Source: a virus
Taxonomy: Duplodnaviria > Caudoviricetes
IMG/VR virus record: IMGVR_UViG_3300033061_001635
Location: 96,001 to 160,000 of that record
DNA: 64,000 nt
Strand: one strand, 5' to 3'
Shown here one piece after another: positions 3,161-50,278 of the stretch. Under the pieces are notes generated by a model. That model worked only from the letters and a program-made list of their open reading frames with translations, did no database searches and was not told where the DNA came from. The position numbers and the translations under genes were made by a program. How positions within the stretch are numbered: the stretch's first letter is position 1; every line of letters begins with the position of its first letter.

Positions 3161-6100
3161 TTATGCTGTTCGTCCTATAATACTTTGTTTAGCGGCACTA
3201 TTCATGCCTCCCTCAAACACAGTTTTGTCGTATTGCATATGAGAATCTTGGGAGATATTTTTTGCGTTAATAGAAGTCTGGTCATATATTTTCTGTTCCA
3301 TATTGCCCTTTATGCTGTCTAAACCAATGTGGTGAAGTGATGTCGTTTGCGTAACATTAGCAGATAGTGATGTTGGTATAGCATTCGCGTGTTCTCCAAA
3401 TTGAGCCGTGGCAGTTTGGAACGTGTCGATAGATGATGATAAACTTTTTTGTGCAGAATTAAACTGTTCCGTAAAATTGGCCCCAATTTGCTCTGTGTAT
3501 TCATTGAACTGACCAATAGCATTTGTAACAGCATCCTGTATGGACGATGCTATATTAGCCGTATCTATACTAACATTATTAGATACACCACCAGAGGAAG
3601 ATGCTGTTTGTTTGAGGGTTTGTCCCGCATTAGAAATAGGCGCCAATTGCGCCAGCTGTGAGGTTCCACCAGCAGCAAGATATTTCGGACCGGCTATGCC
3701 TCCATTGGCCAAATAATTAACAATTCCACCTCTATTAAAGTGACCACTATTAATAGCATTAAGGATAGGCATATGCTTTTGGCTAGATTCTCTATTGACT
3801 ACAAATTCTCCCGGAGTCAACATGGCTGGAACATTATCCGTTCCAGATGCTCCAATAAGAGCACCATTATTAGCATAAATTAAGCCACCAGAACTATGAT
3901 CTTTGGCTTTTTCGTCATGCTGTTCTAGTCCTGTTTTATATGCATGGGTAGCTACGTGATTTCCAAGATCTGGAACATATAATGGAGAATGGGTTTGTCC
4001 TATTCTTGAATAATCTCTGAGAGAGTAAGACTTTCTAGGTCCCAAAACCATAGGATCATGTACAACGCGCGTTGTTCCTGGCATATCAGCAAATCTTGAT
4101 TCTACTTGACTATTCTTCATTTTTGTAATTGGTGAGCTCTTCTTAAGGGCGTTTTCTACTTGTTTTTTTGCGATTTCTCTCTGAGCAGCATATGCCATTT
4201 GTTCATCAGGGGTCATTTGAGCAATTTCTTTTGCTGGTTTAAAAGTTTGTTCGCTAAATTTTGTTACAACATCAGCTCCGGTGACCATATCAGCAGGGGC
4301 GCTTCTACCTGGATGAAGAACTGGGGCAGCTGACTGATTAGGCAATAATTCATTACTTAATTGAGATGTTAATGAGTCATCGAATAGGCTCTTAGAATTA
4401 TCTATCAAAGACTTATCTACCTTACTTTTTACTACATAAGCTTCGCCTCCGGTGGCCACATACGAATCTCTCGCATAAATAACCGGAACTTGTGGTGCGT
4501 CATGATGAAATGATCCTACGCTTCCGTGTCCAGCTCCTCCTCTATTGATATCCGAGGCATTTTCTGCCATTCTGGCTATAGCAGCATCTCTCATAGCTGA
4601 CTGTGGAATTGGTTCACTAGCGCCAAGATTACCGGTATTTCTAAATTTATTGTTAGGATCAAGATGCCAATCTCCACTTGTTCCGGAATGAATGTCGGTT
4701 GTTTCTGATCCCATATGTGCAAATGCAGCATCTCTTGGAGACATTCCGTGAGGAACAGCCGTTTCAGAGGCTATTCTAGCTGCTGCTATCGCAGCATCGC
4801 CTGAAGTTATCTGTATAGCTCTTCCAGTTTGAGCCATAGTCTCTGAACCAATTCCTTTTCCAATCCCCTCAACAGCTGATCCTGCGAGTCTTCTTACTCC
4901 TTGTGCAGCCTGATCTACATGAGTAAGTCCTACTTCAGTTGCGGCGCCAATCGGATCGGCAACTTTTCCAAGATTAGAAAAACCAGCACCTATTCTAGCT
5001 CCTCCTAGTGCTCCTACACCAGCAACCATAGCGGCCTGATTGGCAAGTGCGCCTGTGCCAACTTCTGCTGGTCCTTCTCTGAATTTTGTTCCATCAGCAT
5101 ATGTTAATGTTGTTGTTGGTTCTAACTCAGATTCTGGTAATACAACATGAGCCAAACCTTGTCCCATAAATATGGCTGCTCTCTCTGGTAAATTCAATAA
5201 AGTTCTACCCTGATTATCATAATATTCTTTGGATTGATCAAAATAATTACCAACCATACTTTCTGTTCTAGCTTCTGATACCGGCTTTTCTCCCGCCCTT
5301 TCCCCATAATTTCTTTGATAATGTAGACCAGCAGTAACGTCAGCGCCACTGGCCCCTCCCATAAACTGAGCAGTTCCTGATGCCAATCTATCTGCCTCTA
5401 ATTGTTCACCCATAAACCTTTCGGTCATTTGTCCTAGCACACCAGCAGAATCATACGATGACAATGCATCATTTGATCTTTGTTCTTTGTCTGATTTGCC
5501 TCCTTTAGCTAGATAATTTACCGGTCCTCCTTTACTATATCCAAATGGTCTAGTCAAATATGCTTGTCTATCATCCATTTGTCCAAATGGTCTTGTTAGA
5601 TATAATTCTTTTTGACGTTGATAAATCTGGCGTTCTTCTTTTTGACTTTGGTAAATCTGGCGTTCTTCATCTGTAATTATTCCATCTTTATTTAGATCTT
5701 CATCTTTGTCAATATTAGTTCCTGCTTTGCCACCATCGGCTAAATAATTTATCTTACCTCCTTTACTTTTATTGATAGAATGTAATAATCCCAAATTCTC
5801 CTTTGTTGACTTTGCATTAACAACAAACTCACCAGGGGTCAGCATCGCAGGAACAGTATCGGTTCCTTTTGGTGAAAAATCAATTAATTGTCCATTTTCA
5901 GCATATATCAATCCTCCGCTAGCTCTTCTGGCTGGTTTTCTGACCTTGGCTTGGTCTTTAGATTGAGATCCAAATAATCTGCCAATAGAGTCAGCAGCAA
6001 GTCCTGCCAAAGCTCCTGTTGTGCCATATTTTTTAGCAAAATTAACTGCACTGCCCAACATAGATTTTGGAGTTTGGGTCTGGAATGGTTGATCATCTGC

Positions 6101-9100
6101 ATAGCCCATGGTGCGATTGTATTGCTTTAATGCTCTGTTATATGATGGATTGTCTGTTGGTTTTTGACGCAAAGACGCCGAAACAGCAGCCTCTTCTTCA
6201 ACAAAAGCCTTTTGCATTGATTCAACTATAGATGGCTCAATAGGCTTAGAGGTTCCTCTAGTAGCTTGGCGAGCCCTAATGTATTCATCAAATGACCTGG
6301 CTCTATCAGCAGCACCACTAACTAATGGAGCATACTCTTTTGGTAGATTTTTTACTACTCCAGGAGTTAATAATCCAGCATCTTCTAATGCTCCTATGGC
6401 ATCAGAGGCTGCATGAAATCCTTCATGATTTAATGCAAAAGCATCATCTGCTAATTTTATATTTATTTGTCCACCAATACCAACACCTTCATCTAGAACA
6501 TCTGGCATAAAGTTTCCTCTCGGTTTTAGTCCCGGAGTGACTTCCGCATTATTTTTAGACTTTTCTACAAACTCAACTATTCTTTTTGCTAAAAACTTTT
6601 CTCCTTGAGAAGTAAGTTTGTATTGTCCACTAGTTGTTCGTCCAGATGATTTAAGATCTAACATTTCTGGTTCCATGGCCTTGGCTGCCCTGGCATTTAA
6701 TGTAGCAGAGTCTCCTCCTCCAAAACCATATTCTGTGCCCCGCATGGGTTGAGCAGACATCGCAGTTTTCTTAACCGACTCAACCACAGATTTGCCCGCT
6801 TTTCTAGTTTGCTGGTCTATGCTCTCCCATAGCCTCGCTTCTTCTGCGTCATTGAGCTTTTCAGTTATATTGTATCTGGATTCATCTAAAGCTTGCTTCA
6901 TATCTCTGTCTATAGCTGATTCTGCTTTAGCTTGTTCTGTTGCTCTTTGTCTTTGTGATTTTTGTCCACCAAGAATACCTTGTCCTCTACCACTTAATTG
7001 TTCAGCAGTTCTTGCGCTATTTGCCATGGAAACTATTCCAGACGTTATTTGAATAAGATCAATAGCGTCTTGAGGAGTTGATTCTCTCTTCATAACTCGT
7101 CCAGCAATATCGGGAACTTTTCTAAGAGATGCTCCAGCGGTAACTACTCCAACAGGAGTAAGCATACTAGCGGCAGTAACTCCAATAGCTGTTACATCTC
7201 CTGGTTCGGATGTTCTTAAATAGTTTGTTCCGTCACTAAATAATACATTACCATTTTTATCAGCATATTGTATAGGTCCATGCTTCTGAATCATTTCCTG
7301 CAAATCTTGATCTTTTTGAATTCTGTCTAAAGTTTGAACAGAGAGTGCTCCGGTTCCTCCTTGAGAAAAAATTATAGGAGGAACACCACCACTATCTTTC
7401 CATAAAGGATTTGTTGTCTGAGAATCTAAAGGAGGTAATATTTCTGCATCTGTTAGTGGACCAGCCAACATAGGATCTACGCCAAGCGACACAGCATCTG
7501 CTTTAGTTAACTTAGTTTTTGTTTTAGTCTCTTTAGATGTCTCTCTAGAAGCTTCAAATCTGTCTCTGGCTGATAATCTAGCAACATTTTTGCCGTCCGC
7601 AGCAATTTCCGTACCAGATGTGTGTCTTTCAGATCCGTCAAGTTTAAATCCTGTTGCGTAGTCTAGTAGTCCTGACATAAAATCAGAAACCGCTGCATCT
7701 CTTTCTTTAGTTCTTTTTGTTCTATCTGAGCCAACCATTTCTGGCGGAAGTGTGGAGTCAAATAGTTCTGAACCAAATAGCTTAGGTTTATCGGCACCAT
7801 ATTTTTTAAATAAATCTCCAGCTTTTTTAGCTTCAAAATAATCTTCAGCATTTTTATAAGATTCGCCAGCCCAGCGTTCTCCGTCTGGCTTATTAACGCC
7901 TCTTCCAAGTCCTATCGGATTTGACCCAGCACTGGCCCTGCCAGTAGAACCAAACTCAACCTGAGCATGTCTTAATTGCTGTAGTCGTTTCTCTCTTTCT
8001 TTATCGCTTATACCCTCTTCTTGAGAATGTTGTCTATATACGTCTATAATTTTTTTGCCTTCGTCTATAGCAAATTGTACTTTTCTTGCTGACTCTTGTG
8101 CTGTTGCTGTTCTGGAGGAAGTTGCCTGCTGAGCAACAGCAGCCGTTTGGGCTTCTTGATTGGCTGTTGGCTGAGTTGTAGTTGGCGATAAGGGTTCTTG
8201 TGTATTAACAGGTTGTGATTTTGTTGTATTAACCGGTGAAGTTCCGGAAGATGTATTAAGTGGTTTGCCATCTTTGTCCAGACCCATAGTAAATAATTTC
8301 TGTTGCGCTATCTGACGAGCCATGGCAGCCGTATTGTTAGGATCATTAGCCAAAGTAACCCAGTCCTTTGTTGCAAATTTACTAAAATCTGCATCTCCTA
8401 TATCATCGCCTGTTGTTCCATCTGCTTTTGGATATTTTCCTGTTGTAGTAGAAATAGTTGGTTTAGTAACAGCAGCCATCTGTTGATTTGTCTGTGTTTT
8501 TGCTAATTGGCCTGATGAAGAATTAAGCATGCCACCAGAGGGGTTTGGTAATAATAATTCAGTATTAGGATTAATAGTATTTGGAACATTTTTATAAGGT
8601 GGAGGCAGAATCAAATCAGCAACATTTTGAGTTGATCTTGATCCTTCCATTTTAAACATCTTACCTCTTGGAGATGTCCCATCAGGATAATATAACATTC
8701 CTGATTTTAGTAGTGATTTTTCTTTTCTCTCTCTGATTTCTGGTCTGAATCTAGATAAGTAGGCTTGTTGTCTTTCGTATCTTATTTGTCCTTTAGCTCT
8801 GTCTAGCATTTCTTTTCTTGTGTTAATGCCGCTAGATTTAGTTGTCTTATGTAATGATCTTAGATTTTGATACTCTGTTTCTTCCTCTTCTGTTCTAGAT
8901 TTTGATCCTTTGAGCCATAAACTTTTTCTTCTACTATATTGTTTACCCATGCCCAATTTGAATTCCTTCATGTCTATTGCATCATCTTTGTTCAAATCAA
9001 AATCAGAAAAATATTTAGTAAATTCTTTTTTATCTAGTAAATTATTTTTGTTTTTATCAAACTGTGTAAAGTCAGATACTAATCCTACTTTGTCAAAATA

Positions 9101-15100: not shown

Positions 15101-18100
15101 AAGTCTAATTTCTCCACCAGTAACCAGAGTATCATCAAAATCAAAAACCATTTCTTTAAATGGGCCGGTCGAGTTATTGTTTGGGAATATTTCTCCATAC
15201 TTTTTAAGTAGTCCGCCGCCTGATAATTTCTGAACCATCTTATCATTCTTTGGTTCTGGTATTCCATATTGTGCTCTAAAATATTTTTGAAATTCTTCAA
15301 CAGCCTTGCCTCTACTATTACTATCTATTGTTCTTTTAACTTCTGTTGGAATATTAGGATCAATACCAAATATTTTTGCCGCTTTAGGTCCGATGCCCAT
15401 TGGAAAGTCGATTGGACGAGTTCTTAAAGCATCGTCCAATATGGTAGCATCTGCTGATCCAAAAATTTGTTCTAGTAAAGCCCCTTCAATATTTCCTTGT
15501 CCTAATGTTTCTCTTTGTTTTTTAGTTAATTCTTTAGGAGTAATACCAAGAAGTTTTGATGCTCCTTGTACTATTTCTGCTGTTTGTCCACTAAGATAAT
15601 CAATAACATTTTGGAATTCTGTTGGTAATCCTCTTTGTACTATGGAGGCATTTATTGACCTGTCTTTGCCGGACGAATCGGTGCCAAGATTCCAAGTTTC
15701 TGGACCTAATAATCCAGTATATCCTAATGGATTTAATCCTACTAAACCTAATTGTGTCGATGACAAAACAGCATTTGTTGTATCTTTTAATGCTGTTGCT
15801 TTTTGAGTTCCTTGTGATTGTTTAAATTTATCTATTAAGTAATCTCTTGTTCTTGTATAGTAAGCTAATTTATCTGCTTTAGTTTCTGGTCTAAATGCAG
15901 AATTCCAATATTTTAATTTGCCACCTTCAGCAGTATCAGATACTGTTTTTCCTGAGAATGGGCCAAAACTTGAATCATTTGGTAATCTTTCAGATCCAAA
16001 TCTTTTTAATATCTCTGTTCCTTGAGCTGGTAATATTCCAGAAGATTTTTTAACAGCTGTTTCTGTAGCTACTTTTGCTAAAATAGCTTGTTGTATAGCG
16101 GAAGATGGACCAGTTGGAGATGATGATGAATCAGTATCAAATCTTAGTCCATATTTTGCAGGATCGCTGGTTGCTAACTGTCTAAGAAGGCGATATGGTT
16201 CAAATGATTTTTTAGTTTCTAGTTTTTTCTTTTTATCTTTTAAGGACCGATAAAGCTCTAGTTGAGCAGCATACTCTTTGTCTGTCTCTGCTTTTTTATT
16301 ATCTGCGCGAGTTATTCCTGTTGCGGCCAACTGCTGGTCTATACCGGATACTTCTTCTTTGTATGCTGCTTCTGCTTGTTCTATTAGTGTTGGCAATACG
16401 TTGGATCTGTTCTGTAGTTGAACCATATTGTTTTTTAATAATGAAAATACCGAGGGGGAAACAACTTGTTGAAGACCCTCTAGATTTCCATTTAATACTA
16501 AATCCCTAACTTGTGTTCCACTTATTCCGCCTGTTCTTTTTAGATTAGAGACTCCATATCCTGCTTTTTTATATTTCTCCATTTGCTTTTCTGTCTTGTC
16601 TGCAACAAAAGCCATGCTTCCTTCACCAGCTAATGTAATCTGTCTACGACCATCCTTTTCTCCCATATCAAAAGCTAAAGGAACACTCATATCTCCAAAT
16701 GCCTTTGGTAGAACAGAGGCCCCCTTAGATCCGAATCCTGCTTTGGCCAGTGCTAATCTAAAATCTTTATCAAATACTGCTGTTCTATAATTTTCAGAAT
16801 CTACAGCCTCATCGGATCCGACTAATGCTATAAAGTCTTCATAGGGTATGCCAGCAGCTTTGGCTGCTTCCATCATAGATTCGTGACCTACTGTTGTTGG
16901 AGCAAATCCTCCCCAAGTTAATCCTATTTTTTTCTTAGTTGCTTCTACTAGTTCATTTCCTGTTTTACGACGTAATCCACCGTCGTCTTTTCGTCCTAAT
17001 ACTACTGATTTAGAACCTATTCTATCTTCTAATAAAGCTTCTTCTTTTGCCGTGTCTAATGGAGCCCCTGTTGTGCTACCAGCTGTTCTACCAAATAATC
17101 CAACACCACTAACGTCCCTCATTGTTCTTTGTTTAAGAATTCTATCTTTTTCTTCTTTTGTAGTAGACGATAATGTATAAGCTCTATCTACTTCCTGTAA
17201 CATACCCTCTAACTTATCCTGAGAAACTGTGCTTGTAAGCAACATAACTTCTGAAGCTTTAGTTATATCTTCTGGGGTTAGGATAGGGAAGCGATTTGTT
17301 TGTCGTAGTGTTCCGTTATCGTTGGATCCTCTTCCGGTAACAATACTACTTTTACCAGCTCCGGCCACGCCATATAGTGCTTTTAGAGAGTTTAAACTTT
17401 TTTCTTTTCTGGCTTTGATGGCTAGATCAGTTAAATACTCCGTATAATTTCTTGGTCCATCAACACCGGCTTTTTTCATAGCCTGTTCAATAACTTGGGC
17501 ATTTGCTGGATCATTAATTACATCAAAATCAATATATCCTAAATTTCTTGTAACCTTACCACCATCTGTATATTGTTGTCTTTGAATTCCAGCACTACCT
17601 AATAATTCATTTAGAGTAGAGTCTAATATTCCCTCCATATTAGAATCTAGCATTGGTCGTTTTTGAATTAGAGTTGTTAAAAATTCTTCTTTACCATTAT
17701 CTTCTGCTTTATTTATAACATCTTGCTTAACTCCGCCCTTTAATAGTAAGTCAGTAATTTTAGGATTTATTGGTCGATATTCACGAGCATTTTTCTTTTT
17801 TTCAGCTTCAAAATATAATGCTGATCCTTCTTTAGAAACTTCAGGATTGTCCGATCTTCCCGTTCTTATCGTATCTCTTCTTAAATTGCTTAATACGCTA
17901 TTAAGCATGTTGTTTTTATAGCTACGACCATATACAACATCGGCGCTATTATATCCGCCATCTTTCTCTGTTAGAGCATCAAAAGCATCAGCCAATCCAT
18001 CATTATCACCAGAGAATAATTGACTTACTCTATTTCTATATTGATCAAAAGCGCCTGATGATTGTGTCCTTATTGAATTTAATAATTGATGTGTTAATTC

Positions 18101-21100
18101 ATGATATAATGTATTTTTTTCTTGATTTGGGAAATATCTGGTGCTACTTAAACCCACTGTTCCTCGTCCGGTAGTTTCGGTAATTTCTTTTTTAGCCGCC
18201 ATTGCTGCTTTTCTAGCATAAGCTTGTTTATCTTTCACTTTAGATATTTGCATAGTTAATGCAGATTTTTCATCATAAGCCTTTTTAAATGCAGCATCAT
18301 CAATTGAAAAAGATCCATCATCAAAAGTTTTTGTTGGCGTTTTCATTATCTTCTTAATTTCTTTTTCTTTTTCCTCCCATAATTTTTGATAGCCATATAG
18401 ATCTTGTTCATCGGCCGTGGTGAACCCATACTGAGATAAATCTAACTTATCAAAATCTCTAGCGCCATAAGGATTTGCATAAAAAGTACCACGAGAACTA
18501 ACGTTTTGTCCTACTCCACCAAAATCAATATTTTGTGGTAAAACTTTAGACAAATCCTGTTCTGGTAAACCTATATATTTAGCAAAATTTGCTAGATCGC
18601 CCACTAAATCATTTCGTCTAATTTTAGTCTTAAACAAACTTTCAAATTTTTTGCGATCAAAAGCTTGTGACTTAAAATGTTCAGCAACTGCATTCTGATC
18701 AACATTTATTCTTTCATCTTTTGGATATTGATCCCACGCTAATGATACTTGTTCATCATTTAACTTCTTTTCCATTTCTTTAACATAAGCGTTCGTAATG
18801 CGCTTGGGAAATTTGGTTTGTCCTGTACCGAATGGGGTTGATTCTGCTTTTCCTCCGGCCATGAATCTTTGAATTCTTCCTCCAAGATTTTTTTTATCAA
18901 ACTTTTTTGGATCTTGTTCAATTAATCTTTTATTCTGCTTACCCTCTGGTAATGACAGATACTCTGCCTTAGTTATAGTTTCTGCTCGCTTCGGTCCTGT
19001 ACCAGAATATGAAAAACCTAATCCTTTATCTATTAAGTTCTGTTTTAGATTATCGTCAACAAAAAGCGGTCTCCCACTACGTTCTTTATCTGTCTGTTGA
19101 CTATATCCTTTAGTAAAATTCTCTGTTACATTTTTACCTTTTGTATATTGTGTTTCAGTTAATTTTTTTGCTTCAAGAGCAAGATTTTTTTTCCATTTTT
19201 GGTTACTTCTCATTTCAAATGTATCAACTCCGACAAGTCTACTACTAGTATCATATGCCGAAGTTTTTGGTGTGAACTTTACTACTGGACTGTCTCCGTC
19301 GTAAACATGGTCAACAACCACATTTAATGGCTCTGGGGCTTTTCCTCCACCGCCAAATCTTTGTCTTTTATTTGATTTTCCTGCTCTTATACTTCCACCA
19401 CCCCCATACTTATTCATATTATGAAGATTATCTGATCCTATAGTTTCAACAGCTTTCTTTCTTATAACAAATTCTCCTGGCTCTAACATTGCTGGTACAG
19501 TATCTCCACTGCCAGTACCAGGAACAACACCACCTCGTGCAAATTTTCTTATAACTCCGCCATTAGCTTTACCATCTGGTCCTCTTTTAACTCCTGTGGT
19601 AAATCCTGTAGTAAATTCTGTTAATGCTTTAAATCCCTTAAATGCTGCAAGAACTGCTAATGCTGGAAGAATTCCTTTAACGGCGTCTGCTACTTTTATC
19701 AAACCGCTAGTTAAAGATAATGCACCTCTAACTAAACTCTGAAATCCTTTAGATTGACCTATCTCACGAAATAGTGAGAAAAATTCTTCACGAACTTTGC
19801 TTATTTGATTTGCTAAACTAAGTTGTGCTGTAGCAGCATCTTTAGCCAGAGATGCCTGTCCTTGTTGTGCAACCTTTAATGCCTGCTGGGTCACAGTGAA
19901 TTGTTGAATAAGAGGAATAACTTTGCCAATTTGACGAAATCCACCAAGTTCTTCAACTATTCTGGAAAAATCTAAACTTCTAGGATCTATCTTGCCTAGT
20001 CCTTTGCTTAATAATTCAACGGCTTTATATGCTCCAACAAATTTACCTTCTGTGTCTGTTAGATTAACACCAAACTCTTTTAGCGCATCTATTGTTGTTC
20101 CTCTTTGAACACGAGTAAATATTGTCCGCAATCCAGTAGCAATAGTTTCAGCACTTTCACGACTAGTTGCTCTAATACTAGTAAATACCGAAATGAATTC
20201 ATTTAAAGCGTCTTTTCCTTCGCTTACTCCTTTGCTCGCAGTAGCAAATACGCTACCTGTTCTTTGTACAGCCGTAATGATGTCGCTGGATTCTACTGCG
20301 AATCTTGCGGCAACAGCATTAACTGCTCCTAATGATGCCTCCAAATCATTAGCGCTAATACCAAACTGTCTCATTATAGCAATACTGCCTTCGACAGTCT
20401 CATTCATATTATCGAATGATGGAGCTAAGCTACTAAGAGCTAAAGCCTTTAGAGCTTTCTCAGTTTCTCTAGCACTCAAACCAGCCTGAGCTAATGTTGA
20501 TGCTACTTGAGTTAACTCTTTAGAACTAACACCAAATTCTACAGCTAAATTAGTAATTTGAGATTGCAGTTTGGATAATCCAGCAGCAGATTCACCAGTA
20601 ACTTGTTGTAGCTTTACAAGTTCTTTATCATAATCAATAAAAGCTTGTATACCATTATTTATACTATTGGTTACGCCATATATAACGCTTGTAACAGCAC
20701 TAAATGCAACGAATCTTCTAACTGCTAAACCAGCCTGTTTACCGAATTCCTGCATCTCTGTTGCGGCATTTTGCAATCCTCCAGATGTTGATGAGGATAC
20801 TTTATTTAATTTAGCAATTGCTGACGAAGTTTGATTAATTTGTTGAGGGACATTGTTAATTTTAACAGAATTTACGCTATTACCAAAAGCCTTTATTGCT
20901 GATGTGGCAGCATTGGCTGATTTGACAGTTGAGGCAAAATTAGCATTTAGAACTTTTAATGAAGACGATAATGCTGCAACATTTTTTGATGCTGCCGGAT
21001 CAAGTTTAAACTGTACGTTTGCATTAAGAGTGCCAAGATCTTTTTTAATCTGAGCAGCTATTTGCTTAACGTTTGTTGGACCTTTAAGATTCAACTGTGC

Positions 21101-21121
21101 TGTTAGGTTAAAAGTTGCCAT
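3161..21121 (-). CDS. Giant tape measure protein (5,986 aa) carrying multiple enzymatic domains
   Basis: The N-terminal ~500 aa resemble TP901-type TMP (ELVKLQQVTG...LAQAGLSARET...AETIATGLRTIFTR). It has long helical Ala/Gln/Lys-rich stretches and sits right after tail tube and chaperone genes. Five DTVPAMLxPGEFV modules of the kind found in TMP C-termini. Confidence 0.9.
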   Translation of the reverse strand: MATFNLTAQLNLKGPTNVKQIAAQIKKDLGTLNANVQFKLDPAASKNVAALSSSLKVLNANFASTVKSANAATSAIKAFGNSVNSVKINNVPQQINQTSSAIAKLNKVSSSTSGGLQNAATEMQEFGKQAGLAVRRFVAFSAVTSVIYGVTNSINNGIQAFIDYDKELVKLQQVTGESAAGLSKLQSQITNLAVEFGVSSKELTQVASTLAQAGLSARETEKALKALALSSLAPSFDNMNETVEGSIAIMRQFGISANDLEASLGAVNAVAARFAVESSDIITAVQRTGSVFATASKGVSEGKDALNEFISVFTSIRATSRESAETIATGLRTIFTRVQRGTTIDALKEFGVNLTDTEGKFVGAYKAVELLSKGLGKIDPRSLDFSRIVEELGGFRQIGKVIPLIQQFTVTQQALKVAQQGQASLAKDAATAQLSLANQISKVREEFFSLFREIGQSKGFQSLVRGALSLTSGLIKVADAVKGILPALAVLAAFKGFKALTEFTTGFTTGVKRGPDGKANGGVIRKFARGGVVPGTGSGDTVPAMLEPGEFVIRKKAVETIGSDNLHNMNKYGGGGSIRAGKSNKRQRFGGGGKAPEPLNVVVDHVYDGDSPVVKFTPKTSAYDTSSRLVGVDTFEMRSNQKWKKNLALEAKKLTETQYTKGKNVTENFTKGYSQQTDKERSGRPLFVDDNLKQNLIDKGLGFSYSGTGPKRAETITKAEYLSLPEGKQNKRLIEQDPKKFDKKNLGGRIQRFMAGGKAESTPFGTGQTKFPKRITNAYVKEMEKKLNDEQVSLAWDQYPKDERINVDQNAVAEHFKSQAFDRKKFESLFKTKIRRNDLVGDLANFAKYIGLPEQDLSKVLPQNIDFGGVGQNVSSRGTFYANPYGARDFDKLDLSQYGFTTADEQDLYGYQKLWEEKEKEIKKIMKTPTKTFDDGSFSIDDAAFKKAYDEKSALTMQISKVKDKQAYARKAAMAAKKEITETTGRGTVGLSSTRYFPNQEKNTLYHELTHQLLNSIRTQSSGAFDQYRNRVSQLFSGDNDGLADAFDALTEKDGGYNSADVVYGRSYKNNMLNSVLSNLRRDTIRTGRSDNPEVSKEGSALYFEAEKKKNAREYRPINPKITDLLLKGGVKQDVINKAEDNGKEEFLTTLIQKRPMLDSNMEGILDSTLNELLGSAGIQRQQYTDGGKVTRNLGYIDFDVINDPANAQVIEQAMKKAGVDGPRNYTEYLTDLAIKARKEKSLNSLKALYGVAGAGKSSIVTGRGSNDNGTLRQTNRFPILTPEDITKASEVMLLTSTVSQDKLEGMLQEVDRAYTLSSTTKEEKDRILKQRTMRDVSGVGLFGRTAGSTTGAPLDTAKEEALLEDRIGSKSVVLGRKDDGGLRRKTGNELVEATKKKIGLTWGGFAPTTVGHESMMEAAKAAGIPYEDFIALVGSDEAVDSENYRTAVFDKDFRLALAKAGFGSKGASVLPKAFGDMSVPLAFDMGEKDGRRQITLAGEGSMAFVADKTEKQMEKYKKAGYGVSNLKRTGGISGTQVRDLVLNGNLEGLQQVVSPSVFSLLKNNMVQLQNRSNVLPTLIEQAEAAYKEEVSGIDQQLAATGITRADNKKAETDKEYAAQLELYRSLKDKKKKLETKKSFEPYRLLRQLATSDPAKYGLRFDTDSSSSPTGPSSAIQQAILAKVATETAVKKSSGILPAQGTEILKRFGSERLPNDSSFGPFSGKTVSDTAEGGKLKYWNSAFRPETKADKLAYYTRTRDYLIDKFKQSQGTQKATALKDTTNAVLSSTQLGLVGLNPLGYTGLLGPETWNLGTDSSGKDRSINASIVQRGLPTEFQNVIDYLSGQTAEIVQGASKLLGITPKELTKKQRETLGQGNIEGALLEQIFGSADATILDDALRTRPIDFPMGIGPKAAKIFGIDPNIPTEVKRTIDSNSRGKAVEEFQKYFRAQYGIPEPKNDKMVQKLSGGGLLKKYGEIFPNNNSTGPFKEMVFDFDDTLVTGGEIRLPDGKLDLSRKDDMPLVQEMLKKGKLTPLGQHLSEALKQEPSLIDNVSILSARNPNQTGILAQTLQNLGLPIPESKIRGSNGPQNKKITGYQKMIDDNLETIMRLKGQGHEAIHYTFAKGGKVEEEYKSILASILPKEMLTSDGYLKMPSGQAEPIDFIPGRSLAEKSKSSVMSILLGKSEKAPPEEQTGAFYQGGLMPKVLRHNLEKYKSKLPEDEYKALKQFVDQRILFEGNDDTIKTAGGLHKGVLAHESFHDIQGHLYDNHPEIIDKLHESLLKRKDAVEKWYKDPKNAEWAGPKDYRLEHFFPTATSKSPYSGNFIAEAHDSVKKITKKNNVSQNLFSTLGATQWDLGKNELIPVLLSAAVENNKGAIELLSQAFGESGLNPDFYKTLPKYADGGMALGLEDTDMSSLISSMYGSADSIARTFQGAGLTAGMPERSIGAAGVTGLQKSQEKKPKNYSKIGLRSDGSEITATYFKNNDRQGFVSAKKATGNLFTVGLSKATQGYGPRLYDIVMEAATAAGSMLTSDRNQVSESAKSVWSYYFNNRSDVKKTPLDPSQWTKNHSYLDPKLYGRKETWPPPSDPAWILQSGYNKSADLINSPDVINMNDPKYAEHIKAQQLSFLSRNGGGSIRKFASGGNTGLSSEDTVPALLTPGEFVVNKNAAKKIGYNKLHQLNKADKIQGYNKGGIVGGVQKFAFGGGVDSVLSGLQNITSYLGKTQNITSNRPNSIDTSTIAVDPSILQDTKAFVDTLYDAGDGMKYLNRLLNENKQLSIKAVLDAGNKDLERLKISGASIDKIIEAEKALSNIRNKGLIDVTKRQFLESGFKESSVGKKLGSGATQQKILSLAEKEEQRLIDKRKKAIEADIVSSSKQPIAASDLADQVAQAISSELNDIKTQAFSRATTVATGTQTSTGIKGNITASELKNLNISGNDIQKYISDSMRDRKTLRQMDQQLIATRMEEYKNAGTIRGISVASAEEAKKLAQEEVSKRREAINDLAKMRGERGVGAAGLMDTRNSPINRAFRERYFTGNLGRSMQRGLGDVGLAAGLVAGQGQNISSALFDTKTDKGKIKAADAGARIDKAATTLSVGLTTSAQLAAINPMLGAAAAIGTALYAGADAAFDFSGTAKKAAQEMTRSLLNDKLSAASDSLSNALEKLSKDVNNVDLRAKTASSVKALTDTAIESTADTATAGKNKAENDRNWTDFGRGILLGIGEIGVGMNPYYQDLDPVTVAKSKKGSYGTEEASVDAQKELENYQKIANTGYGDLERLYSKGFSNDQIMDPSNEAGNIVRESLKGMILSDPKKLALYMSAGEQGKETIVGKAAQDEFLANDELAKASQESAKLARAMDLADKAGRRLAASFDKIADIVNESVNKISFESDARVEATTQYASSLRGESKVSGPKLREKNILDNPNAYSEEEFTKALESATAGLDAGIRKQLIGGAQLQQNIPKNITQSIATVLDKSAGSGVDELKKAAVDTAKNEIENNPNLSRQQKDELKQISTAKIENMAKKAKENNADNTMQVSEFRKELEDGTNILGDFGKKLLDSVKNLSSFKEGALDKFAKGLNEASKAAKEAQNYFRKSRDISNEGNMNLREILSGYGETYNEKSNRIMGDVSNLAGGETTVQGIQNRQIRLSQQRDTLQKQQGTLTDKDALRNNVEQLNKLDDQLQNNREALDMLANSTELVDKAFSDLQHTSELQNNRQNFVNQLLTNTPEEADKLNQSFIRLQRNLSGGLNSPYNQRDARKAFNEALFKTGNVREATRAGNTVLANQRKETLALSQDPGVKAAQELQIRNQYAQNQGKPGVDVDQAVAEYFQKQQLQLTKQMAIESGMANNPLVQQSLAALQDRKTDPSMQKAAERYLESVGLRSSATKGQGELAESQSILKDSNDNLRISIDDLRASVEGNMKDANIGKDAAGNNIVNPGVAVAAPPVARSSGGLIYASNGKLIDFKPKGTDTVPAMLSPGEFVINSKSTQKHLPLLQSINSGYFDKVGLVSDFTQFDKNKNNLLDKKEFTKYFSDFDLNKDDAIDMKEFKLGMGKQYSRRKSLWLKGSKSRTEEEETEYQNLRSLHKTTKSSGINTRKEMLDRAKGQIRYERQQAYLSRFRPEIRERKEKSLLKSGMLYYPDGTSPRGKMFKMEGSRSTQNVADLILPPPYKNVPNTINPNTELLLPNPSGGMLNSSSGQLAKTQTNQQMAAVTKPTISTTTGKYPKADGTTGDDIGDADFSKFATKDWVTLANDPNNTAAMARQIAQQKLFTMGLDKDGKPLNTSSGTSPVNTTKSQPVNTQEPLSPTTTQPTANQEAQTAAVAQQATSSRTATAQESARKVQFAIDEGKKIIDVYRQHSQEEGISDKEREKRLQQLRHAQVEFGSTGRASAGSNPIGLGRGVNKPDGERWAGESYKNAEDYFEAKKAGDLFKKYGADKPKLFGSELFDSTLPPEMVGSDRTKRTKERDAAVSDFMSGLLDYATGFKLDGSERHTSGTEIAADGKNVARLSARDRFEASRETSKETKTKTKLTKADAVSLGVDPMLAGPLTDAEILPPLDSQTTNPLWKDSGGVPPIIFSQGGTGALSVQTLDRIQKDQDLQEMIQKHGPIQYADKNGNVLFSDGTNYLRTSEPGDVTAIGVTAASMLTPVGVVTAGASLRKVPDIAGRVMKRESTPQDAIDLIQITSGIVSMANSARTAEQLSGRGQGILGGQKSQRQRATEQAKAESAIDRDMKQALDESRYNITEKLNDAEEARLWESIDQQTRKAGKSVVESVKKTAMSAQPMRGTEYGFGGGDSATLNARAAKAMEPEMLDLKSSGRTTSGQYKLTSQGEKFLAKRIVEFVEKSKNNAEVTPGLKPRGNFMPDVLDEGVGIGGQINIKLADDAFALNHEGFHAASDAIGALEDAGLLTPGVVKNLPKEYAPLVSGAADRARSFDEYIRARQATRGTSKPIEPSIVESMQKAFVEEEAAVSASLRQKPTDNPSYNRALKQYNRTMGYADDQPFQTQTPKSMLGSAVNFAKKYGTTGALAGLAADSIGRLFGSQSKDQAKVRKPARRASGGLIYAENGQLIDFSPKGTDTVPAMLTPGEFVVNAKSTKENLGLLHSINKSKGGKINYLADGGKAGTNIDKDEDLNKDGIITDEERQIYQSQKEERQIYQRQKELYLTRPFGQMDDRQAYLTRPFGYSKGGPVNYLAKGGKSDKEQRSNDALSSYDSAGVLGQMTERFMGEQLEADRLASGTAQFMGGASGADVTAGLHYQRNYGERAGEKPVSEARTESMVGNYFDQSKEYYDNQGRTLLNLPERAAIFMGQGLAHVVLPESELEPTTTLTYADGTKFREGPAEVGTGALANQAAMVAGVGALGGARIGAGFSNLGKVADPIGAATEVGLTHVDQAAQGVRRLAGSAVEGIGKGIGSETMAQTGRAIQITSGDAAIAAARIASETAVPHGMSPRDAAFAHMGSETTDIHSGTSGDWHLDPNNKFRNTGNLGASEPIPQSAMRDAAIARMAENASDINRGGAGHGSVGSFHHDAPQVPVIYARDSYVATGGEAYVVKSKVDKSLIDNSKSLFDDSLTSQLSNELLPNQSAAPVLHPGRSAPADMVTGADVVTKFSEQTFKPAKEIAQMTPDEQMAYAAQREIAKKQVENALKKSSPITKMKNSQVESRFADMPGTTRVVHDPMVLGPRKSYSLRDYSRIGQTHSPLYVPDLGNHVATHAYKTGLEQHDEKAKDHSSGGLIYANNGALIGASGTDNVPAMLTPGEFVVNRESSQKHMPILNAINSGHFNRGGIVNYLANGGIAGPKYLAAGGTSQLAQLAPISNAGQTLKQTASSSGGVSNNVSIDTANIASSIQDAVTNAIGQFNEYTEQIGANFTEQFNSAQKSLSSSIDTFQTATAQFGEHANAIPTSLSANVTQTTSLHHIGLDSIKGNMEQKIYDQTSINAKNISQDSHMQYDKTVFEGGMNSAAKQSIIGRTA
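5611..5670 (-). repeat. 30-bp tandem duplication (EERQIYQxQK x2) plus adjacent YLTRPFG x2 in TMP
   Basis: tttgacgttgataaatctggcgttcttctt / tttgactttggtaaatctggcgttcttcat. Confidence 0.85.
6170..6560 (-). other. Zincin-like metallopeptidase domain 3 within TMP
   Basis: FALNHEGFHAA (HExxH at 6413-6427), with a downstream EEEAA. Confidence 0.5.
8960..9060 (-). other. EF-hand pair within TMP
   Basis: Two 12-residue loops, DKNKNNLLDKKE and DLNKDDAIDMKE, each flanked by F. A third loop, DLNKDGIITDEE, lies at 5663-5698. Confidence 0.65.
13280..13730 (-). other. GNAT-like acetyltransferase domain within TMP
   Basis: Beta strands, then KATQGYGPRLYDIVME (acetyl-CoA-binding motif A-like), then LTSDR..VSESAKSVW. 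Confidence 0.6.
13925..14735 (-). other. Zincin-like metallopeptidase domain 2 within TMP
   Basis: GVLAHESFHDIQ (HExxH at 14339-14353), with a downstream NEL as a candidate third ligand. Confidence 0.6.
14760..15160 (-). other. HAD-superfamily phosphatase domain within TMP
   Basis: All four HAD motifs in order: VFDFDDTL, ILSAR, NKK, MIDDN. Confidence 0.85.
15270..15700 (-). other. PD-(D/E)xK nuclease-like domain within TMP
   Basis: EGALLEQ ... RPIDF ... PTEVKRT gives the E / PD / ExK catalytic arrangement. Confidence 0.55.
16430..16935 (-). other. HIGH-motif (cytidylyltransferase-like, NadD/CoaD fold) nucleotidyltransferase domain within TMP
   Basis: GLTWGGFAPTTVGH (GxFxPxTxGH) and the C-terminal ISGTQVR...VSPSV signature. 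Confidence 0.8.
16980..17555 (-). other. P-loop kinase/NTPase domain within TMP
   Basis: ALYGVAGAGKSS Walker A at ~17348-17371, followed later by an RxxxR lid-like segment (RILKQRTMRD). Confidence 0.65.
17580..18840 (-). other. Zincin-like metallopeptidase domain 1 within TMP
   Basis: TLYHELTHQ (HExxH at 18089-18103), with a downstream EEF as a candidate third ligand. Confidence 0.6.
18990..19330 (-). other. Staphylococcal nuclease (thermonuclease)-like domain within TMP
   Basis: VDHVYDGDS ... RLVGVDTFE ... ALEAKK ... SGRPL ... LIDKGLGFSY follows the SNase pattern DGDT / RLxGxDTPE / GRxL / LxxxGxA. Confidence 0.75.
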
Positions 21122-21222: not shown

Positions 21223-22131
21223 TTATGAACTAACGGGTTCTGTGGATTCTGCAACAGTGCTTTTGGGTGGTTCAGAAACTGGGGGCTCTTTTGCTGTCTC
21301 TGTTTGTGCTGCTGTTGGTTCATCTTTTTTGTCTTCTTCTAAAATAATTGGATTTCCATTATCATCAAGGAACGGCTGAGGGTCAACCAGATAGTCTCCA
21401 TCAGAATTTACCTTGTTGCCATATTTATCAACAAAATTCCCTTCTTCATCTATGAATCTGCCACTTTCATCTACTAGCCTACCTTCAGCATCAACAAGTC
21501 TACCTTTTTTATCAACAAGTCGCAATTTATCATCAACAAATTTAAATTTCTTTAAGAATTTGTTTTCTGGCAGATTGCTTTCATAGTCATTATCCAATCC
21601 ATATAACATATTAGCCAAATTTTGCGCTCCTAACAAACCAACCTGATCGGTTGACCTATTAAGATAATCTTCCATATTATTAAAGTATGGTTGTTTAGTA
21701 TCATTATACACCACACAAACACTAACCAAATAATTAAACCTAGCATTATCAGCTTGACCTTCAGCACTATGATTATCTAAACTAGTTCTAACACTGATTA
21801 GATCTCGTATTTCATCTCTAATGCCCTTCATTTTAATAGCTAGGTCTTTGGCTTCATTTAAACTAAATCCACCCTTTGCTAGTCTTTTTTCACCGTCTAA
21901 AAGTTCTTTTTGTAAAGTGGTGAATTTAGCCTGTTTCTCATCATTCCATAAACCTTGATCTTCTAAAAGATCGTCTAACTTTGCTCTTACAACACTTTTG
22001 CTTTTTATAGCATCAGTAAAAGCTTGATTATAGACTTTTTGTGCTTCTCTTTGATCATTTAATGATGGTGTCTTGACAACAAATTCTTTTTCTGTACCGT
22101 CTATAGTAACCTTAAAATTTTTAGTTTTCAT
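21223..22131 (-). CDS. Putative tail assembly chaperone with 7-aa D-x-x-G-[RN] repeats
   Basis: Directly upstream of TMP, with a helical acidic N-terminus. Repeats VDKKGRL-VDAEGRL-VDESGRF-IDEEGNF-VDKYGNK-VNSDGDY. Confidence 0.6.
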   Translation of the reverse strand: MKTKNFKVTIDGTEKEFVVKTPSLNDQREAQKVYNQAFTDAIKSKSVVRAKLDDLLEDQGLWNDEKQAKFTTLQKELLDGEKRLAKGGFSLNEAKDLAIKMKGIRDEIRDLISVRTSLDNHSAEGQADNARFNYLVSVCVVYNDTKQPYFNNMEDYLNRSTDQVGLLGAQNLANMLYGLDNDYESNLPENKFLKKFKFVDDKLRLVDKKGRLVDAEGRLVDESGRFIDEEGNFVDKYGNKVNSDGDYLVDPQPFLDDNGNPIILEEDKKDEPTAAQTETAKEPPVSEPPKSTVAESTEPVSS

Positions 22132-22414
22132 ATTTATCTCCTATTTCCTTATTATTAAAATTATATGTTTGTTTAGTTTTATACGATCTATATAACATAG
22201 ATGATAGAGTCTCCAATGCTAATCTTATTTGTTTATTTCCATTATTCAAAATGGAATTTCTGGTATACTCCCAAAGGTCTATATATTCTTGCTGATCTGG
22301 TCCTGGTTCTTCCCACAAATGACCAAAAGATTGTTCGAATCTTGCTAATGAACCTATCATAGTTGTTTTTAATCGTGTTTCGATTTCAGTAATTAGTTGT
22401 TGTTGATAATCCAT
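22121..22414 (-). CDS. Hypothetical protein (tail chaperone region)
   Basis: 97-aa ORF overlapping the downstream gene by 11 nt. Confidence 0.7.
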   Translation of the reverse strand: MDYQQQLITEIETRLKTTMIGSLARFEQSFGHLWEEPGPDQQEYIDLWEYTRNSILNNGNKQIRLALETLSSMLYRSYKTKQTYNFNNKEIGDKYEN

Positions 22415-38204: not shown

Positions 38205-38209
38205 AATTT

Positions 38210-42040: not shown

Positions 42041-42057
42041 TTAATCTCTAACTATTT

Positions 42058-45045: not shown

Positions 45046-45090
45046 TTTTTCCCCTTATTACGAAAAATATAAAAATTTAGTTAAATATAT

Positions 45091-45096
45091 ATACAC
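45091..45096 (-). promoter_or_regulatory. Putative late promoter motif GTGTAT
   Basis: AAGTGTATATATAT, 46 bp upstream of the ATG at 45045. Confidence 0.55.
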
Positions 45097-45098
45097 TT

Positions 45099-45365: not shown

Positions 45366-45366
45366 A

Positions 45367-47862: not shown

Positions 47863-47936
47863 ATTTTAACCATATTATGAGTTATCCTATTATAGAATCT
47901 AATACTATAATATTGACTATATTAACTTTGTCCAGC

Positions 47937-50252: not shown

Positions 50253-50278
50253 ATTATATTCCTTAAATTATAAAGATA

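What the first reader, a model, noticed from the sequence alone, without database searches (positions are those of the whole stretch)
3161..21121. Tape measure protein as an injected multi-enzyme cartridge (polyprotein of host-takeover effectors)
Seen: after a normal TP901-type TMP N-terminus, aa ~600-2630 (19330-13230) are a string of unrelated enzyme domains. In order: SNase (DGDS/RLVGVDTFE), HELTH peptidase, P-loop (GVAGAGKS), HIGH nucleotidyltransferase (GGFAPTTVGH...ISGTQVR), PD-(D/E)xK, HAD phosphatase (DFDDTL/SAR/K/DD), HESFH peptidase, GNAT. A helical, partly hydrophobic TMP-like stretch follows, then two more cargo blocks (EF-hands, HEGFH peptidase, possible ART). Established: TMPs leave the tail at infection, and the TMP enzyme domains I know are mostly single cell-wall hydrolases; phage and plasmid 'polyvalent proteins' carry similar zincin/GNAT/nuclease/ART mixtures. 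Inference: this phage uses its tail ruler to deliver about ten cytoplasm-acting enzymes before any phage gene is expressed, for anti-defence or host takeover.
Basis: partly seen in the sequence, partly recalled or inferred. Interest (0 to 1): 0.95.

Follow-up and report, generated by a model that had tools for sequence, protein, structure and literature searches.

The report
Giant tape measure carrying swappable enzymes
The tail-length ruler protein of an uncultured 175-kb lake phage is a 5,986-residue, cysteine-free chain that carries a row of conserved, interchangeable enzyme modules, so the tail probably delivers ready-made enzymes into the host, although delivery itself is untested.

Summary

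At least 531 related giant tape measures (3.3-7.7 thousand aa) exist. In 120 chosen only by N-terminus and length, the modules occur in 39 different orders, and homology breaks fall at [FY]xxGG linkers. Catalytic residues are invariant. These 120 proteins hold 14 cysteines in 630,018 aa, while free-standing homologues of one module have 0.99% Cys.

This favours cargo that stays in the virion ruler and is ejected. Thermus phage P23-45, whose tape measure carries a virion RNA polymerase, is a proven single-enzyme precedent. Delivery, cleavage and targets remain untested here. This scan has already noted the same kind of protein in at least 38 other genomes. I found no paper describing it. I class it as a new variant of a known kind.

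The parts
3161..21121 (-). Whole tape measure ORF, 5,986 aa, no cysteine
19562..21121 (-). N-terminal TP901-type TMP scaffold (aa 1-520), with hydrophobic stretches at aa 132-151 and 473-502
   Evidence: TIGR01760 E 2e-27 at aa 147-492; PF10145 and PHROG TMP families; hydrophobic stretches. It is conserved at 50-98% identity in at least 531 giant proteins.
19334..19561 (-). Boundary element 1 (aa 521-596): GGxIRKFARGG...DTVPAMLEPGEFV, followed by GGGG linkers
   Evidence: The same element occurs in Gordonia, Rhodococcus, Clavibacter and Nitrincola TMPs.
18887..19333 (-). SNase-like nuclease module (aa 597-745)
   Evidence: PF00565 E 3.8e-4, 21.3 bits against a cut-off of 21. This type is present in 13 of 120 relatives.
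17567..18853 (-). HELTH module (aa 757-1185): large, mostly helical HExxH domain of unplaced fold
   Evidence: H1007, E1008 and H1011 are invariant in 11 sequences. AF2 pLDDT is about 85-90, with HExxH in a helix after a strand. No fold match was listed. There is a weak PG_bind_siph hit at aa 767-824, E 0.076.
16937..17554 (-). P-loop kinase-like module (aa 1190-1395)
16322..16936 (-). HIGH-family adenylyltransferase-like module (aa 1396-1600), NMNAT/NaMNAT/PPAT-like
16022..16321 (-). Long helical linker (aa 1601-1700)
   Evidence: AF2 secondary structure
15227..16021 (-).
   Evidence: E1884, D1905 and P-T-E-V-K-R 1925-1930 are invariant in 20 sequences. It is 87-91% identical in relatives whose N-terminus is 58-79% identical. 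A HAD module is inserted inside it in some relatives. Fold not confirmed.
14747..15169 (-). Small HAD-type phosphatase-like module (aa 1985-2125)
   Evidence: DxDxT, (S/T)AR and DD invariant in 7 sequences. No PDB profile hit. Not folded.
13916..14746 (-). HESFH zincin-like module (aa 2126-2402)
13217..13729 (-). GNAT acetyltransferase-like module (aa 2465-2635)
   Evidence: G2513 and G2515 invariant
12977..13216 (-). Boundary element 2 (aa 2636-2715)
9272..12976 (-). Middle scaffold (aa 2716-3950): helix-former-rich, proline-poor, with a hydrophobic stretch at aa 3108-3127
   Evidence: Composition. Conserved at 34-85% identity in relatives and detected in 84 of 120. Helicity is inferred, not modelled.
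9074..9271 (-). Boundary element 3 (aa 3951-4016)
5936..9073 (-). Cargo block 2 (aa 4017-5062): EF-hand pair at about aa 4017-4055, a hydrophobic stretch at aa 4642-4667, HEGFH at aa 4899-4903, the rest unknown
   Evidence: EF-hand Pfam hits below cut-off. The block is shared only with L003 and a few others, 3-10 of 120. GC is 0.41 against 0.35 for the rest of the gene.
5717..5935 (-). Boundary element 4 (aa 5063-5135)
3908..5716 (-). Cargo block 3 (aa 5136-5738): canonical EF-hand loop DLNKDGIITDEE at aa 5142-5153, the rest unknown
   Evidence: Sequence read directly. No family hit. Rare among relatives.
3647..3907 (-). Boundary element 5 (aa 5739-5825)
3164..3646 (-). C-terminal segment (aa 5826-5986)
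   Evidence: 70% identical to the C-terminus of the complete 4,953-aa relative L004

Best explanation
This is the genuine tail tape measure protein of an uncultured lake phage of about 175 kb. It belongs to a large family of giant tape measures of 3.3-7.7 thousand aa.

A conserved scaffold is interrupted by slots. The scaffold has a TP901-type N-terminus, a helical middle of about 1,200 aa, and a C-terminus. Each slot is fenced by a roughly 65-aa element (GGxIxx...DTVPAMLTPGEFV). Inside a slot, independently folding modules are joined by short [FY]xxGG linkers.

This copy carries:
- an SNase-like nuclease;
- three HExxH domains;
- a fixed pair of a P-loop kinase-like domain and an NMNAT/PPAT-like adenylyltransferase;
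- a very conserved domain of unknown fold;
- a small HAD phosphatase-like domain;
- a GNAT;
- EF-hand loops.

Shown here: the modules are conserved with intact catalytic motifs, they are shuffled between relatives at the linkers, and they lack cysteine like the scaffold.

Inferred mechanism:
1. The whole chain is built into the tail lumen, probably as a trimer and largely unfolded.
2. It is expelled ahead of the DNA at infection.
3. Its modules refold at or inside the host cytoplasm, possibly after cleavage at the linkers.
4. They act there in catalytic, low-copy fashion on host factors or on the entering phage DNA.
For: ORF and TMP identity. It is the only TMP match in a record that CheckV rates complete.

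Family size: at least 531 clusters of 3,292-10,476 aa share the N-terminus at E <= 1e-10. 1,582 proteins match the cargo profile.

Catalytic motifs are invariant at 30-55% identity.

Modularity:
- Homology breakpoints fall at linkers at aa 750, 1182-3, 1970-88, 2123 and 2401.
- Module order differs between relatives.
- A HAD module is inserted inside another module in some relatives.
- There are 39 orders in 120 proteins chosen without regard to cargo.
- The linker motif is enriched, 15 against 2.8, and linkers are low-pLDDT joints.

Cysteine: 0 in 5,986 aa against 0.80% in neighbouring genes. There are 14 in 630,018 aa of 120 relatives. Free-standing homologues of the HESFH module have 0.99%, and T5 pb2 has none. 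The cargo therefore obeys the same constraint as a virion tape measure.

Precedents: the P23-45 TMP-fused virion RNA polymerase acts on entering DNA (PMC10770324). T5 pb2 is cut between its body and its enzyme domain and is a trimer (PMC10038345).

From established knowledge: kinase, adenylyltransferase and GNAT folds need ATP or acyl-CoA, which are cytoplasmic.
Against: - There is no direct evidence that the cargo is in virions, is ejected, crosses the inner membrane, is cleaved or is active.
- Three folded copies of 150-430-aa globular modules would not fit a lumen of about 4 nm, so storage in an unfolded state has to be assumed.
- About three molecules per infection is too few for a bulk metabolic effect such as NAD or CoA synthesis.
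- The nuclease and the HExxH domains could act in the envelope, as classical TMP lytic domains do. A weak peptidoglycan-binding hit at aa 767-824 and a LysM protein among the viral fold matches point that way.
- Fold matches say nothing about substrates; NMNAT and PPAT score alike.
- The HELTH domain, the PDExK-like domain and blocks 2-3 have no confirmed fold.
- Being cysteine-free may reflect exposure of the virion to oxidising water rather than translocation.
Confidence: 0.6

Rival explanations
1. The modules act only in the cell envelope or outside the cell, on peptidoglycan, periplasmic proteins or extracellular DNA. This would be an enlarged version of the classical lytic tape measure, and nothing would reach the cytoplasm.
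For: Known TMP-embedded enzymes are muralytic: T5 pb2 (PMC10038345) and SPbeta YomI, annotated as transglycosylase/TMP. Three modules are HExxH domains and one is SNase-like. SNase and EF-hands use Ca2+, which is more available outside the cytoplasm (my own knowledge). There is a weak PG_bind_siph hit and a LysM protein among the fold matches.
Against: The best-supported folds (P-loop kinase, NMNAT/PPAT-like adenylyltransferase, GNAT) need ATP or acyl-CoA, which are absent from the periplasm. Their cofactor-binding motifs are invariant. P23-45 shows that a TMP-fused enzyme can work on the cytoplasmic side.
Confidence: 0.14
2. The gene is a late-expressed polyprotein. The enzymes are cut out at the linkers in the producing cell and work there, and only the scaffold enters the tail.
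For: Conserved linkers are enriched between modules. The chain holds three HExxH domains that could cut it. T5 and lambda TMPs are processed during tail assembly. The start of the boundary element, R(S/A)SGGLIY, lines up with the T5 cleavage site PR|AEGGMMY, but only over 9 columns at E 0.056.
Against: Enzymes released into the cytoplasm would have no reason to lose all cysteines, yet embedded modules have none while free-standing homologues have 0.99%. Cargo blocks lie between scaffold parts, so excising them would break the ruler into pieces. Expression at tape-measure stoichiometry and timing is an odd way to make enzymes.
Confidence: 0.12
3. The modules are mainly length spacers. Captured domains lengthen the ruler and hence the tail, and their chemistry is irrelevant or decaying.
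For: TMP length sets tail length, and embedded motifs count towards it in mycobacteriophages (my own knowledge). P23-45, with 5,002 aa, has an extremely long tail. Pfam barely recognises the modules.
Against: Catalytic and cofactor-binding residues are invariant where overall identity is 30-55%. The models are confident globular folds rather than extended helices. P-loop and NTase are kept as a pair in 68 of 70 proteins that carry either.
Confidence: 0.05
4. The ORF is an assembly chimera or a run of separate genes wrongly joined.
For: It comes from a metagenome. Laying public contigs on the gene gave only fragments.
Against: There is no stop codon in 17,961 nt. More than 20 independent contigs from different samples carry collinear giant ORFs, including identical architectures from different samples: L004/L005, L006/L007 and L008/L009. 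At least 531 clusters of such proteins exist. The cysteine-free composition is uniform along the chain.
Confidence: 0.01

Closest known systems
Thermus phage P23-45 gp96: 5,002-aa tape measure with an N-terminal virion RNA polymerase (Nat Commun 2024, PMC10770324)
   Same: A giant tape measure fused to a cytoplasm-acting enzyme that works on the entering genome. It belongs to a very long-tailed siphophage and shows that a ruler can carry an enzyme into the host.
   Different: P23-45 carries one enzyme at the N-terminus, with no slots, linkers or boundary elements reported. Here 8 or more unrelated modules lie between scaffold parts and are shuffled among hundreds of relatives. No RNA polymerase was seen here, and no sequence relationship was tested.
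Polyvalent proteins of phages and conjugative elements (Iyer et al. 2017, PMC5512222)
   Same: Single polypeptides with 2-15 unrelated conflict-type domains (zincin peptidases, GNAT, ART, nucleases, kinases), proposed to enter with the DNA and to be separated by an embedded peptidase.
   Different: That paper never mentions tape measures. Its proteins are thought to travel from the head or through conjugation. Here the carrier is the tail ruler, with its own boundary element and linker code. Whether the HExxH domains belong to the paper's MPTase family was not resolved.
Tape measures with embedded muralytic domains (T5 pb2, PMC10038345; SPbeta YomI; mycobacteriophage TMP motifs)
   Same: An enzyme domain lies inside a TMP. 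T5 pb2 is a cysteine-free trimer that is cut between its body and its enzyme domain. The DTVPAML-type element is shared with actinophage TMPs.
   Different: Those carry one or two cell-wall hydrolases that act in the envelope. Here most supported folds are not wall hydrolases and need cytoplasmic cofactors.
TMP-related effectors of actinobacterial contractile injection systems (Sle1; J Bacteriol 2026, PMC13277306)
   Same: A tape-measure-like carrier with an exchangeable functional domain, packed inside a tail-like tube and expelled.
   Different: That is a bacterial nanomachine, not a phage, with one functional domain per protein. Homology was not tested.
MARTX-type multi-effector toxins (my own knowledge, not tested here)
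   Same: A giant chain with a variable string of effector domains, translocated unfolded and released by cleavage.
   Different: Those are secreted bacterial toxins with a cysteine protease domain and repeat regions. There is no relationship in sequence or carrier.

Membership tests
TP901-family phage tail tape measure protein (TIGR01760 / PF10145) | Match to the family model above the curated cut-off | tested here: met
   TIGR01760: 96 bits against a cut-off of 28.8, aa 147-492. PF10145: 77.1 bits against 33.2.
TP901-family phage tail tape measure protein (TIGR01760 / PF10145) | Position in a tail gene module, downstream of chaperone-like genes and upstream of tail tip genes | tested here: inconclusive
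   The gene order (337, 97 and 302 aa, then the TMP, then a large ORF) is shared with relative L010, but the neighbours have no family hits. Tail fibre and major head hits lie further upstream.
Polyvalent proteins (Iyer et al. 2017) | Several unrelated enzymatic or effector domains in one polypeptide of a phage or plasmid | tested here: met
   At least five modules have independent support: SNase, P-loop, NTase, GNAT and HAD.
Polyvalent proteins (Iyer et al. 2017) | Zincin-like MPTase domain for autoprocessing | tested here: inconclusive
Polyvalent proteins (Iyer et al. 2017) | Delivered into the recipient cell with the DNA | not testable with these tools
   Needs virion and early-infection proteomics.
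Staphylococcal nuclease (PF00565) | Family model at or above the gathering score, plus the Ca-site and catalytic pattern | tested here: met
   21.3 bits against 21 for the isolated segment, but 13.7 bits in the long scan, so the match is borderline. The DGDS ... RLVGVDTFE pattern was read.
HIGH-signature nucleotidyltransferases (NMNAT / NaMNAT / PPAT) | (H/T)xGH and ISxTxxR motifs | tested here: met
   TVGH and ISGTQVR are present. G1412, H1413, S1534, T1536 and R1539 are invariant in 14 sequences.
HIGH-signature nucleotidyltransferases (NMNAT / NaMNAT / PPAT) | Rossmann-like fold of the family | tested here: met
HIGH-signature nucleotidyltransferases (NMNAT / NaMNAT / PPAT) | Substrate specificity (NMN, phosphopantetheine or other) | not testable with these tools
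   NMNAT and PPAT score alike. An enzyme assay is needed.
Zeta-toxin-like / PNK-like P-loop kinases | Walker A motif and the kinase fold | tested here: met
GNAT acyl-CoA N-acyltransferases | GNAT fold and the Q/RxxGxG/A CoA-binding loop | tested here: met
HAD phosphatases | Motifs I-IV (DxDxT, S/T, K, DD) | tested here: met
   Invariant in 7 sequences at 33-41% identity.
HAD phosphatases | Rossmannoid HAD fold | not tested
The profile search against PDB gave nothing. One relative has PF00702 at E 0.08.
PD-(D/E)xK nucleases | alpha-beta-beta-beta-alpha-beta core with D and (D/E)xK on adjacent strands | tested here: inconclusive
   E1884, D1905 and E1927-x-K1929 are invariant. In the model a helix separates the two short strands that carry them. 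No nuclease appeared in the fold lists, which were filled by another domain.
Zincin metallopeptidases | HExxH in an active-site helix plus a third ligand, and the zincin fold | tested here: inconclusive
EF-hand | 12-residue DxDxDG-type loop pair; Pfam model | tested here: inconclusive
   The loops fit the pattern by eye. Pfam gives 18.1 bits against a cut-off of 25. Relatives carry PF13202, PF00036 and PF13499 in their precomputed annotation.
ADP-ribosyltransferases | Any ART family or fold match in this protein | tested here: inconclusive
   No hit in blocks 2-3, and these blocks were not folded. Relatives have a different module with PF03496 at E 1.8e-4 and 6.6e-3, below the cut-off. That module is absent here.

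The most novel reading that the evidence does not exclude
A widespread clade of lake phages uses the tail ruler as a reprogrammable injection cartridge. Cysteine-free enzyme modules are stored unfolded in the tail lumen and threaded into the host ahead of the DNA. They refold, perhaps helped by Ca2+ at the EF-hand loops, and are released by cleavage at the R-x-x-GG / [FY]xxGG joints. They then modify host defence or gene-expression factors, or the ends of the entering genome, before any phage gene is expressed. Recombination at the joints lets phages trade modules like cassettes.
Probability: 0.3. Interest if true: 0.9.

Novelty: new variant of a known kind. Interest (0 to 1): 0.72.

Why it matters
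If the cargo is really ejected, this is a general, modular route of protein injection by non-contractile phages. It would be distinct from head-packaged proteins such as T4 Alt, P1 Dar and N4 RNA polymerase. It would also extend the single proven case, P23-45, to hundreds of phages and dozens of enzyme types.

It would explain why some tape measures reach 5-7 thousand residues. It would give a catalogue of candidate early-acting effectors to mine, including many modules of unknown family. It would also suggest a natural scaffold for delivering designed proteins into bacteria.

The cysteine purge gives a simple sequence signature for proteins that travel through the tail. Even if delivery fails, the linker-delimited shuffling is a clear natural example of domain-cassette exchange.

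Tried and rejected
- Pfam, PHROGs and NCBIfam on the whole protein and on segments gave only the TMP N-terminus and weak SNase, NTase and EF-hand hits. Pfam on relatives and on free-standing homologues gave nothing useful.
- phmmer and profile searches against PDB sequences gave nothing, apart from a HIGH-family protein (3gmi, E 0.0019) and Walker A matches.
- Word-indexed homologue searches for cargo found only TMP fragments.
- The language-model atlas gave only leads for one free-standing homologue and nothing for another.
- One large MAFFT alignment of all modules misplaced the fragments. I therefore folded aa 766-1965 and aa 2126-2640 with clean alignments and left the HAD module out.
- In the multi-domain fold searches one domain filled each list, so the HELTH domain, the PDExK-like domain and most of the HESFH domain remain untested rather than novel.
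- A viral-contig scan with blocks 2-3 found no relatives.
- Laying public runs on the gene: only Logan contigs were available, no RNA holder was listed, the presumed source run barely laid, and no piece spans the gene. This gives no evidence either way on chimerism or expression.
- T5 cleavage-site similarity: BLAST found none. hhalign aligned 9 columns exactly at the site, but with no statistical weight.
- No sheath family hit was found in the genome. This is weak evidence, because the phage's proteins are very divergent.
- Literature searches found no description of multi-enzyme tape measures.
Full report
**The object.** Window 3161-21121 on the minus strand is one open reading frame of 5,986 codons with no stop. 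The window lies in an IMG/VR virus record of 175,133 bp that CheckV rates complete. This ORF is the record's only match to the tape measure family PF10145. The N-terminal 500 residues are a standard TP901-type tape measure: TIGR01760 at 96 bits for aa 147-492, PF10145 at E 2e-21, and several PHROG tape measure families. All genes in the window run on the same strand. Tail-fibre-like genes and a weak major head hit lie upstream. Three small unannotated ORFs (337, 97 and 302 aa) directly precede the gene, in the same order as in a distant relative. No sheath family match was found in the genome. That is weak evidence for a non-contractile tail.

**Architecture.** Five copies of a roughly 65-aa element (GGxI..., then DTVPAMLTPGEFV(V/I)N) divide the chain. 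The order is: N-terminal scaffold, cargo block 1 (aa 597-2635), a scaffold of about 1,200 aa rich in helix formers and almost free of proline (aa 2716-3950), cargo block 2, cargo block 3, and a C-terminal piece. The same element occurs once or twice in ordinary tape measures of Gordonia, Rhodococcus, Clavibacter and Nitrincola phages. Inside the blocks, modules are joined by short [FY]xxGG linkers. There are 15 of these against 2.8 +/- 1.65 in 2,000 shuffles. In the AlphaFold models they fall in low-confidence joints between well-modelled domains.

**What the modules are.** Sequence methods see little:
- SNase reaches Pfam's cut-off only when scanned alone (21.3 bits against 21).
- The cytidylyltransferase families and EF-hands are below cut-off.
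- Searches of PDB sequences gave almost nothing.

I collected relatives from viral contigs and metagenomes and ran an exhaustive profile search. I then built clean alignments and folded aa 766-1965 (pLDDT 78.9) and aa 2126-2640 (pLDDT 81.3).

- The HELTH domain and the supposed PD-(D/E)xK domain did not appear in any list, because another domain filled the lists. Their folds are untested, not new.
- The HAD call rests on motifs I-IV being invariant in seven sequences at 33-41% identity.
- No ART was found in this protein. Relatives carry a different module with sub-threshold ADP-ribosyltransferase hits.

**Conservation.** Overall identity among relatives is 30-55%, yet the following are invariant:
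- HE(L/M)TH;
- G(A/S)GKSS;
- (T/R)GH together with ISxTxxR;
- the GNAT glycine loop;
- HExFHDIQ;
- the E...D...PTEVKR pattern.

That is the signature of working active sites, not of decayed spacers.

**A large, shuffled family.** At least 531 sequence clusters of 3,292-10,476 aa share the N-terminus at E <= 1e-10. They reach 7,733 aa and sit on contigs up to 247 kb. 1,582 proteins match the cargo profile. Public runs that hold small shares of the gene are mostly lake-water metagenomes.

Pairwise maps show scaffold conserved at 34-85% identity, while modules are present or absent. Homology breaks fall within a few residues of the linkers at aa 750, 1182-3, 1970-88, 2123 and 2401. Module order also changes: in several relatives the HELTH domain follows the P-loop, NTase and PDExK-like modules instead of preceding them. 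In others the HAD module sits inside the PDExK-like domain.

I took a census of 120 giant relatives chosen only by N-terminus and length:
- P-loop and NTase occur together in 68 proteins and apart in 2.
- The PDExK-like module occurs in 84, HAD in 52, HELTH in 35, GNAT in 27, HESFH in 17, and this SNase type in 13.
- These 8 modules appear in 39 different orders.
- Sixteen proteins have none of the eight modules, so they carry other cargo.
- Modules of blocks 2 and 3 are rare (3-10 of 120). That stretch of the gene has a higher GC content, 0.41 against 0.35, as expected for a recent acquisition.

The many independent, collinear contigs rule out an assembly chimera for practical purposes. The attempt to lay public data on the gene was uninformative.

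**The cysteine purge.** The protein has no cysteine. The other 34 ORFs of the window have 0.80%, which gives a chance of about 1e-21 for none in 5,986 aa. The 120 relatives hold 14 cysteines in 630,018 residues, and 112 of them have none. Thirty small free-standing homologues of the HESFH module have 88 cysteines in 8,928 residues, or 0.99%. The classical T5 tape measure has none in 1,219 residues.

Embedded modules have therefore been adapted to the same constraint as a virion tape measure. This argues that they stay in the ruler through assembly rather than being cut out to work in the producing cell. It fits storage or passage in an unfolded state, or long exposure to oxidising water. It does not tell these two apart.

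**How it most likely works.** The anatomy, conservation, shuffling and cysteine purge described above are shown. The mechanism is inferred. The whole chain is laid into the tail lumen during assembly, probably as a trimer as in T5 (PMC10038345). It is expelled ahead of the DNA, and the modules fold on the host side.

The kinase, adenylyltransferase and GNAT folds need ATP or acyl-CoA. If they are active they must reach the cytoplasm or its face of the membrane. A published case shows this is possible: the 5,002-aa tape measure of Thermus phage P23-45 carries a virion RNA polymerase that transcribes pre-early genes (PMC10770324).

Processing at the linkers is possible. T5 pb2 is cut after R1127, between its body and its enzyme domain. 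The T5 site PR|AEGGMMY resembles the start of the boundary element here, R(S/A)SGGLIY. However, the alignment covers nine columns and has no statistical weight.

With about three copies per virion, bulk metabolite synthesis is implausible. Low-copy targets are more likely, either host proteins or the entering phage genome. The nuclease and the HExxH domains may instead act in the envelope.

**Comparison with what is known.** The closest functional precedent is the P23-45 tape measure, which carries one fused enzyme. The closest concept is the polyvalent protein of Iyer et al. 2017, a paper that never mentions tape measures. Classical lytic tape measures and the TMP-like effectors of actinobacterial injection systems (PMC13277306) are further relatives in kind.

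What differs here is a ruler with fenced slots, a linker code, 8 or more unrelated modules and family-wide cassette exchange. My literature searches found no description of this. That library is incomplete. This scan has already flagged and followed up the same kind of protein in at least 38 other genomes, with similar conclusions. Two of those notes gave me the P23-45 and T5 leads, which I checked in the papers.

**Verdict.** I rate it a new variant of a known kind, with interest 0.72.

Noticed in passing
window 3161-21121 and 120 related proteins: The chain has no cysteine, and the 120 relatives hold 14 Cys in 630,018 aa. Free-standing homologues of one embedded module have 0.99% Cys, and T5 pb2 is also Cys-free. 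This may be a usable sequence signature for proteins that live in or pass through the tail lumen.
   Followed up: yes
window 4001-8000: The part of the gene encoding cargo blocks 2b-3 has GC 0.41, against about 0.35 for the rest of the gene and 0.29-0.38 for the rest of the window. Its modules are rare among relatives. This suggests a recent acquisition.
   Followed up: partly
L010:12578-13780 and L012:7605-8771 (relatives): In these relatives the HAD module is inserted inside the PDExK-like domain, between its N-terminal and C-terminal halves. In the window's protein it follows that domain instead. This is domain-in-domain cassette insertion.
   Followed up: yes
window 15227-16021: The PDExK-like module is the most conserved part of the protein: 87-91% identical in relatives whose tape measure N-terminus is only 58-79% identical. 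It is present in 84 of 120 relatives. It may be a core functional part rather than optional cargo.
   Followed up: partly
window 21223-22414: Two ORFs directly upstream of the tape measure (97 aa at 22121-22414 and 302 aa at 21223-22131) overlap by 11 nt. The second lies in the +1 frame relative to the first. By position they could be the tail assembly chaperone pair, but the frame relation is not the usual -1 shift, and neither has a family hit.
   Followed up: no
window 34033-51739: This stretch holds a run of six large genes (352-1,276 aa). Tail-fibre PHROG hits fall on short shared N-terminal or internal segments. This suggests a set of modular fibres or spikes.
   Followed up: no
window 5663-5698 and 8957-9070: Canonical EF-hand loops sit just after boundary elements 3 and 4. 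Calcium-dependent folding after ejection is one possible reason.
   Followed up: no
L002:8996-10000 and L004:12533-13507 (relatives): Cargo modules that are absent from the window's protein give sub-threshold hits to ADP-ribosyltransferase exoenzyme PF03496 (E 1.8e-4 and 6.6e-3).
   Followed up: partly
L039:12125-12664 (phage T5 pb2 C-terminus): The published T5 tape measure cleavage site, PR|AEGGMMYP, resembles the start of the boundary element here, R(S/A)SGGLIYA. hhalign aligns the two exactly at that site, but over only 9 columns (E 0.056).
   Followed up: partly
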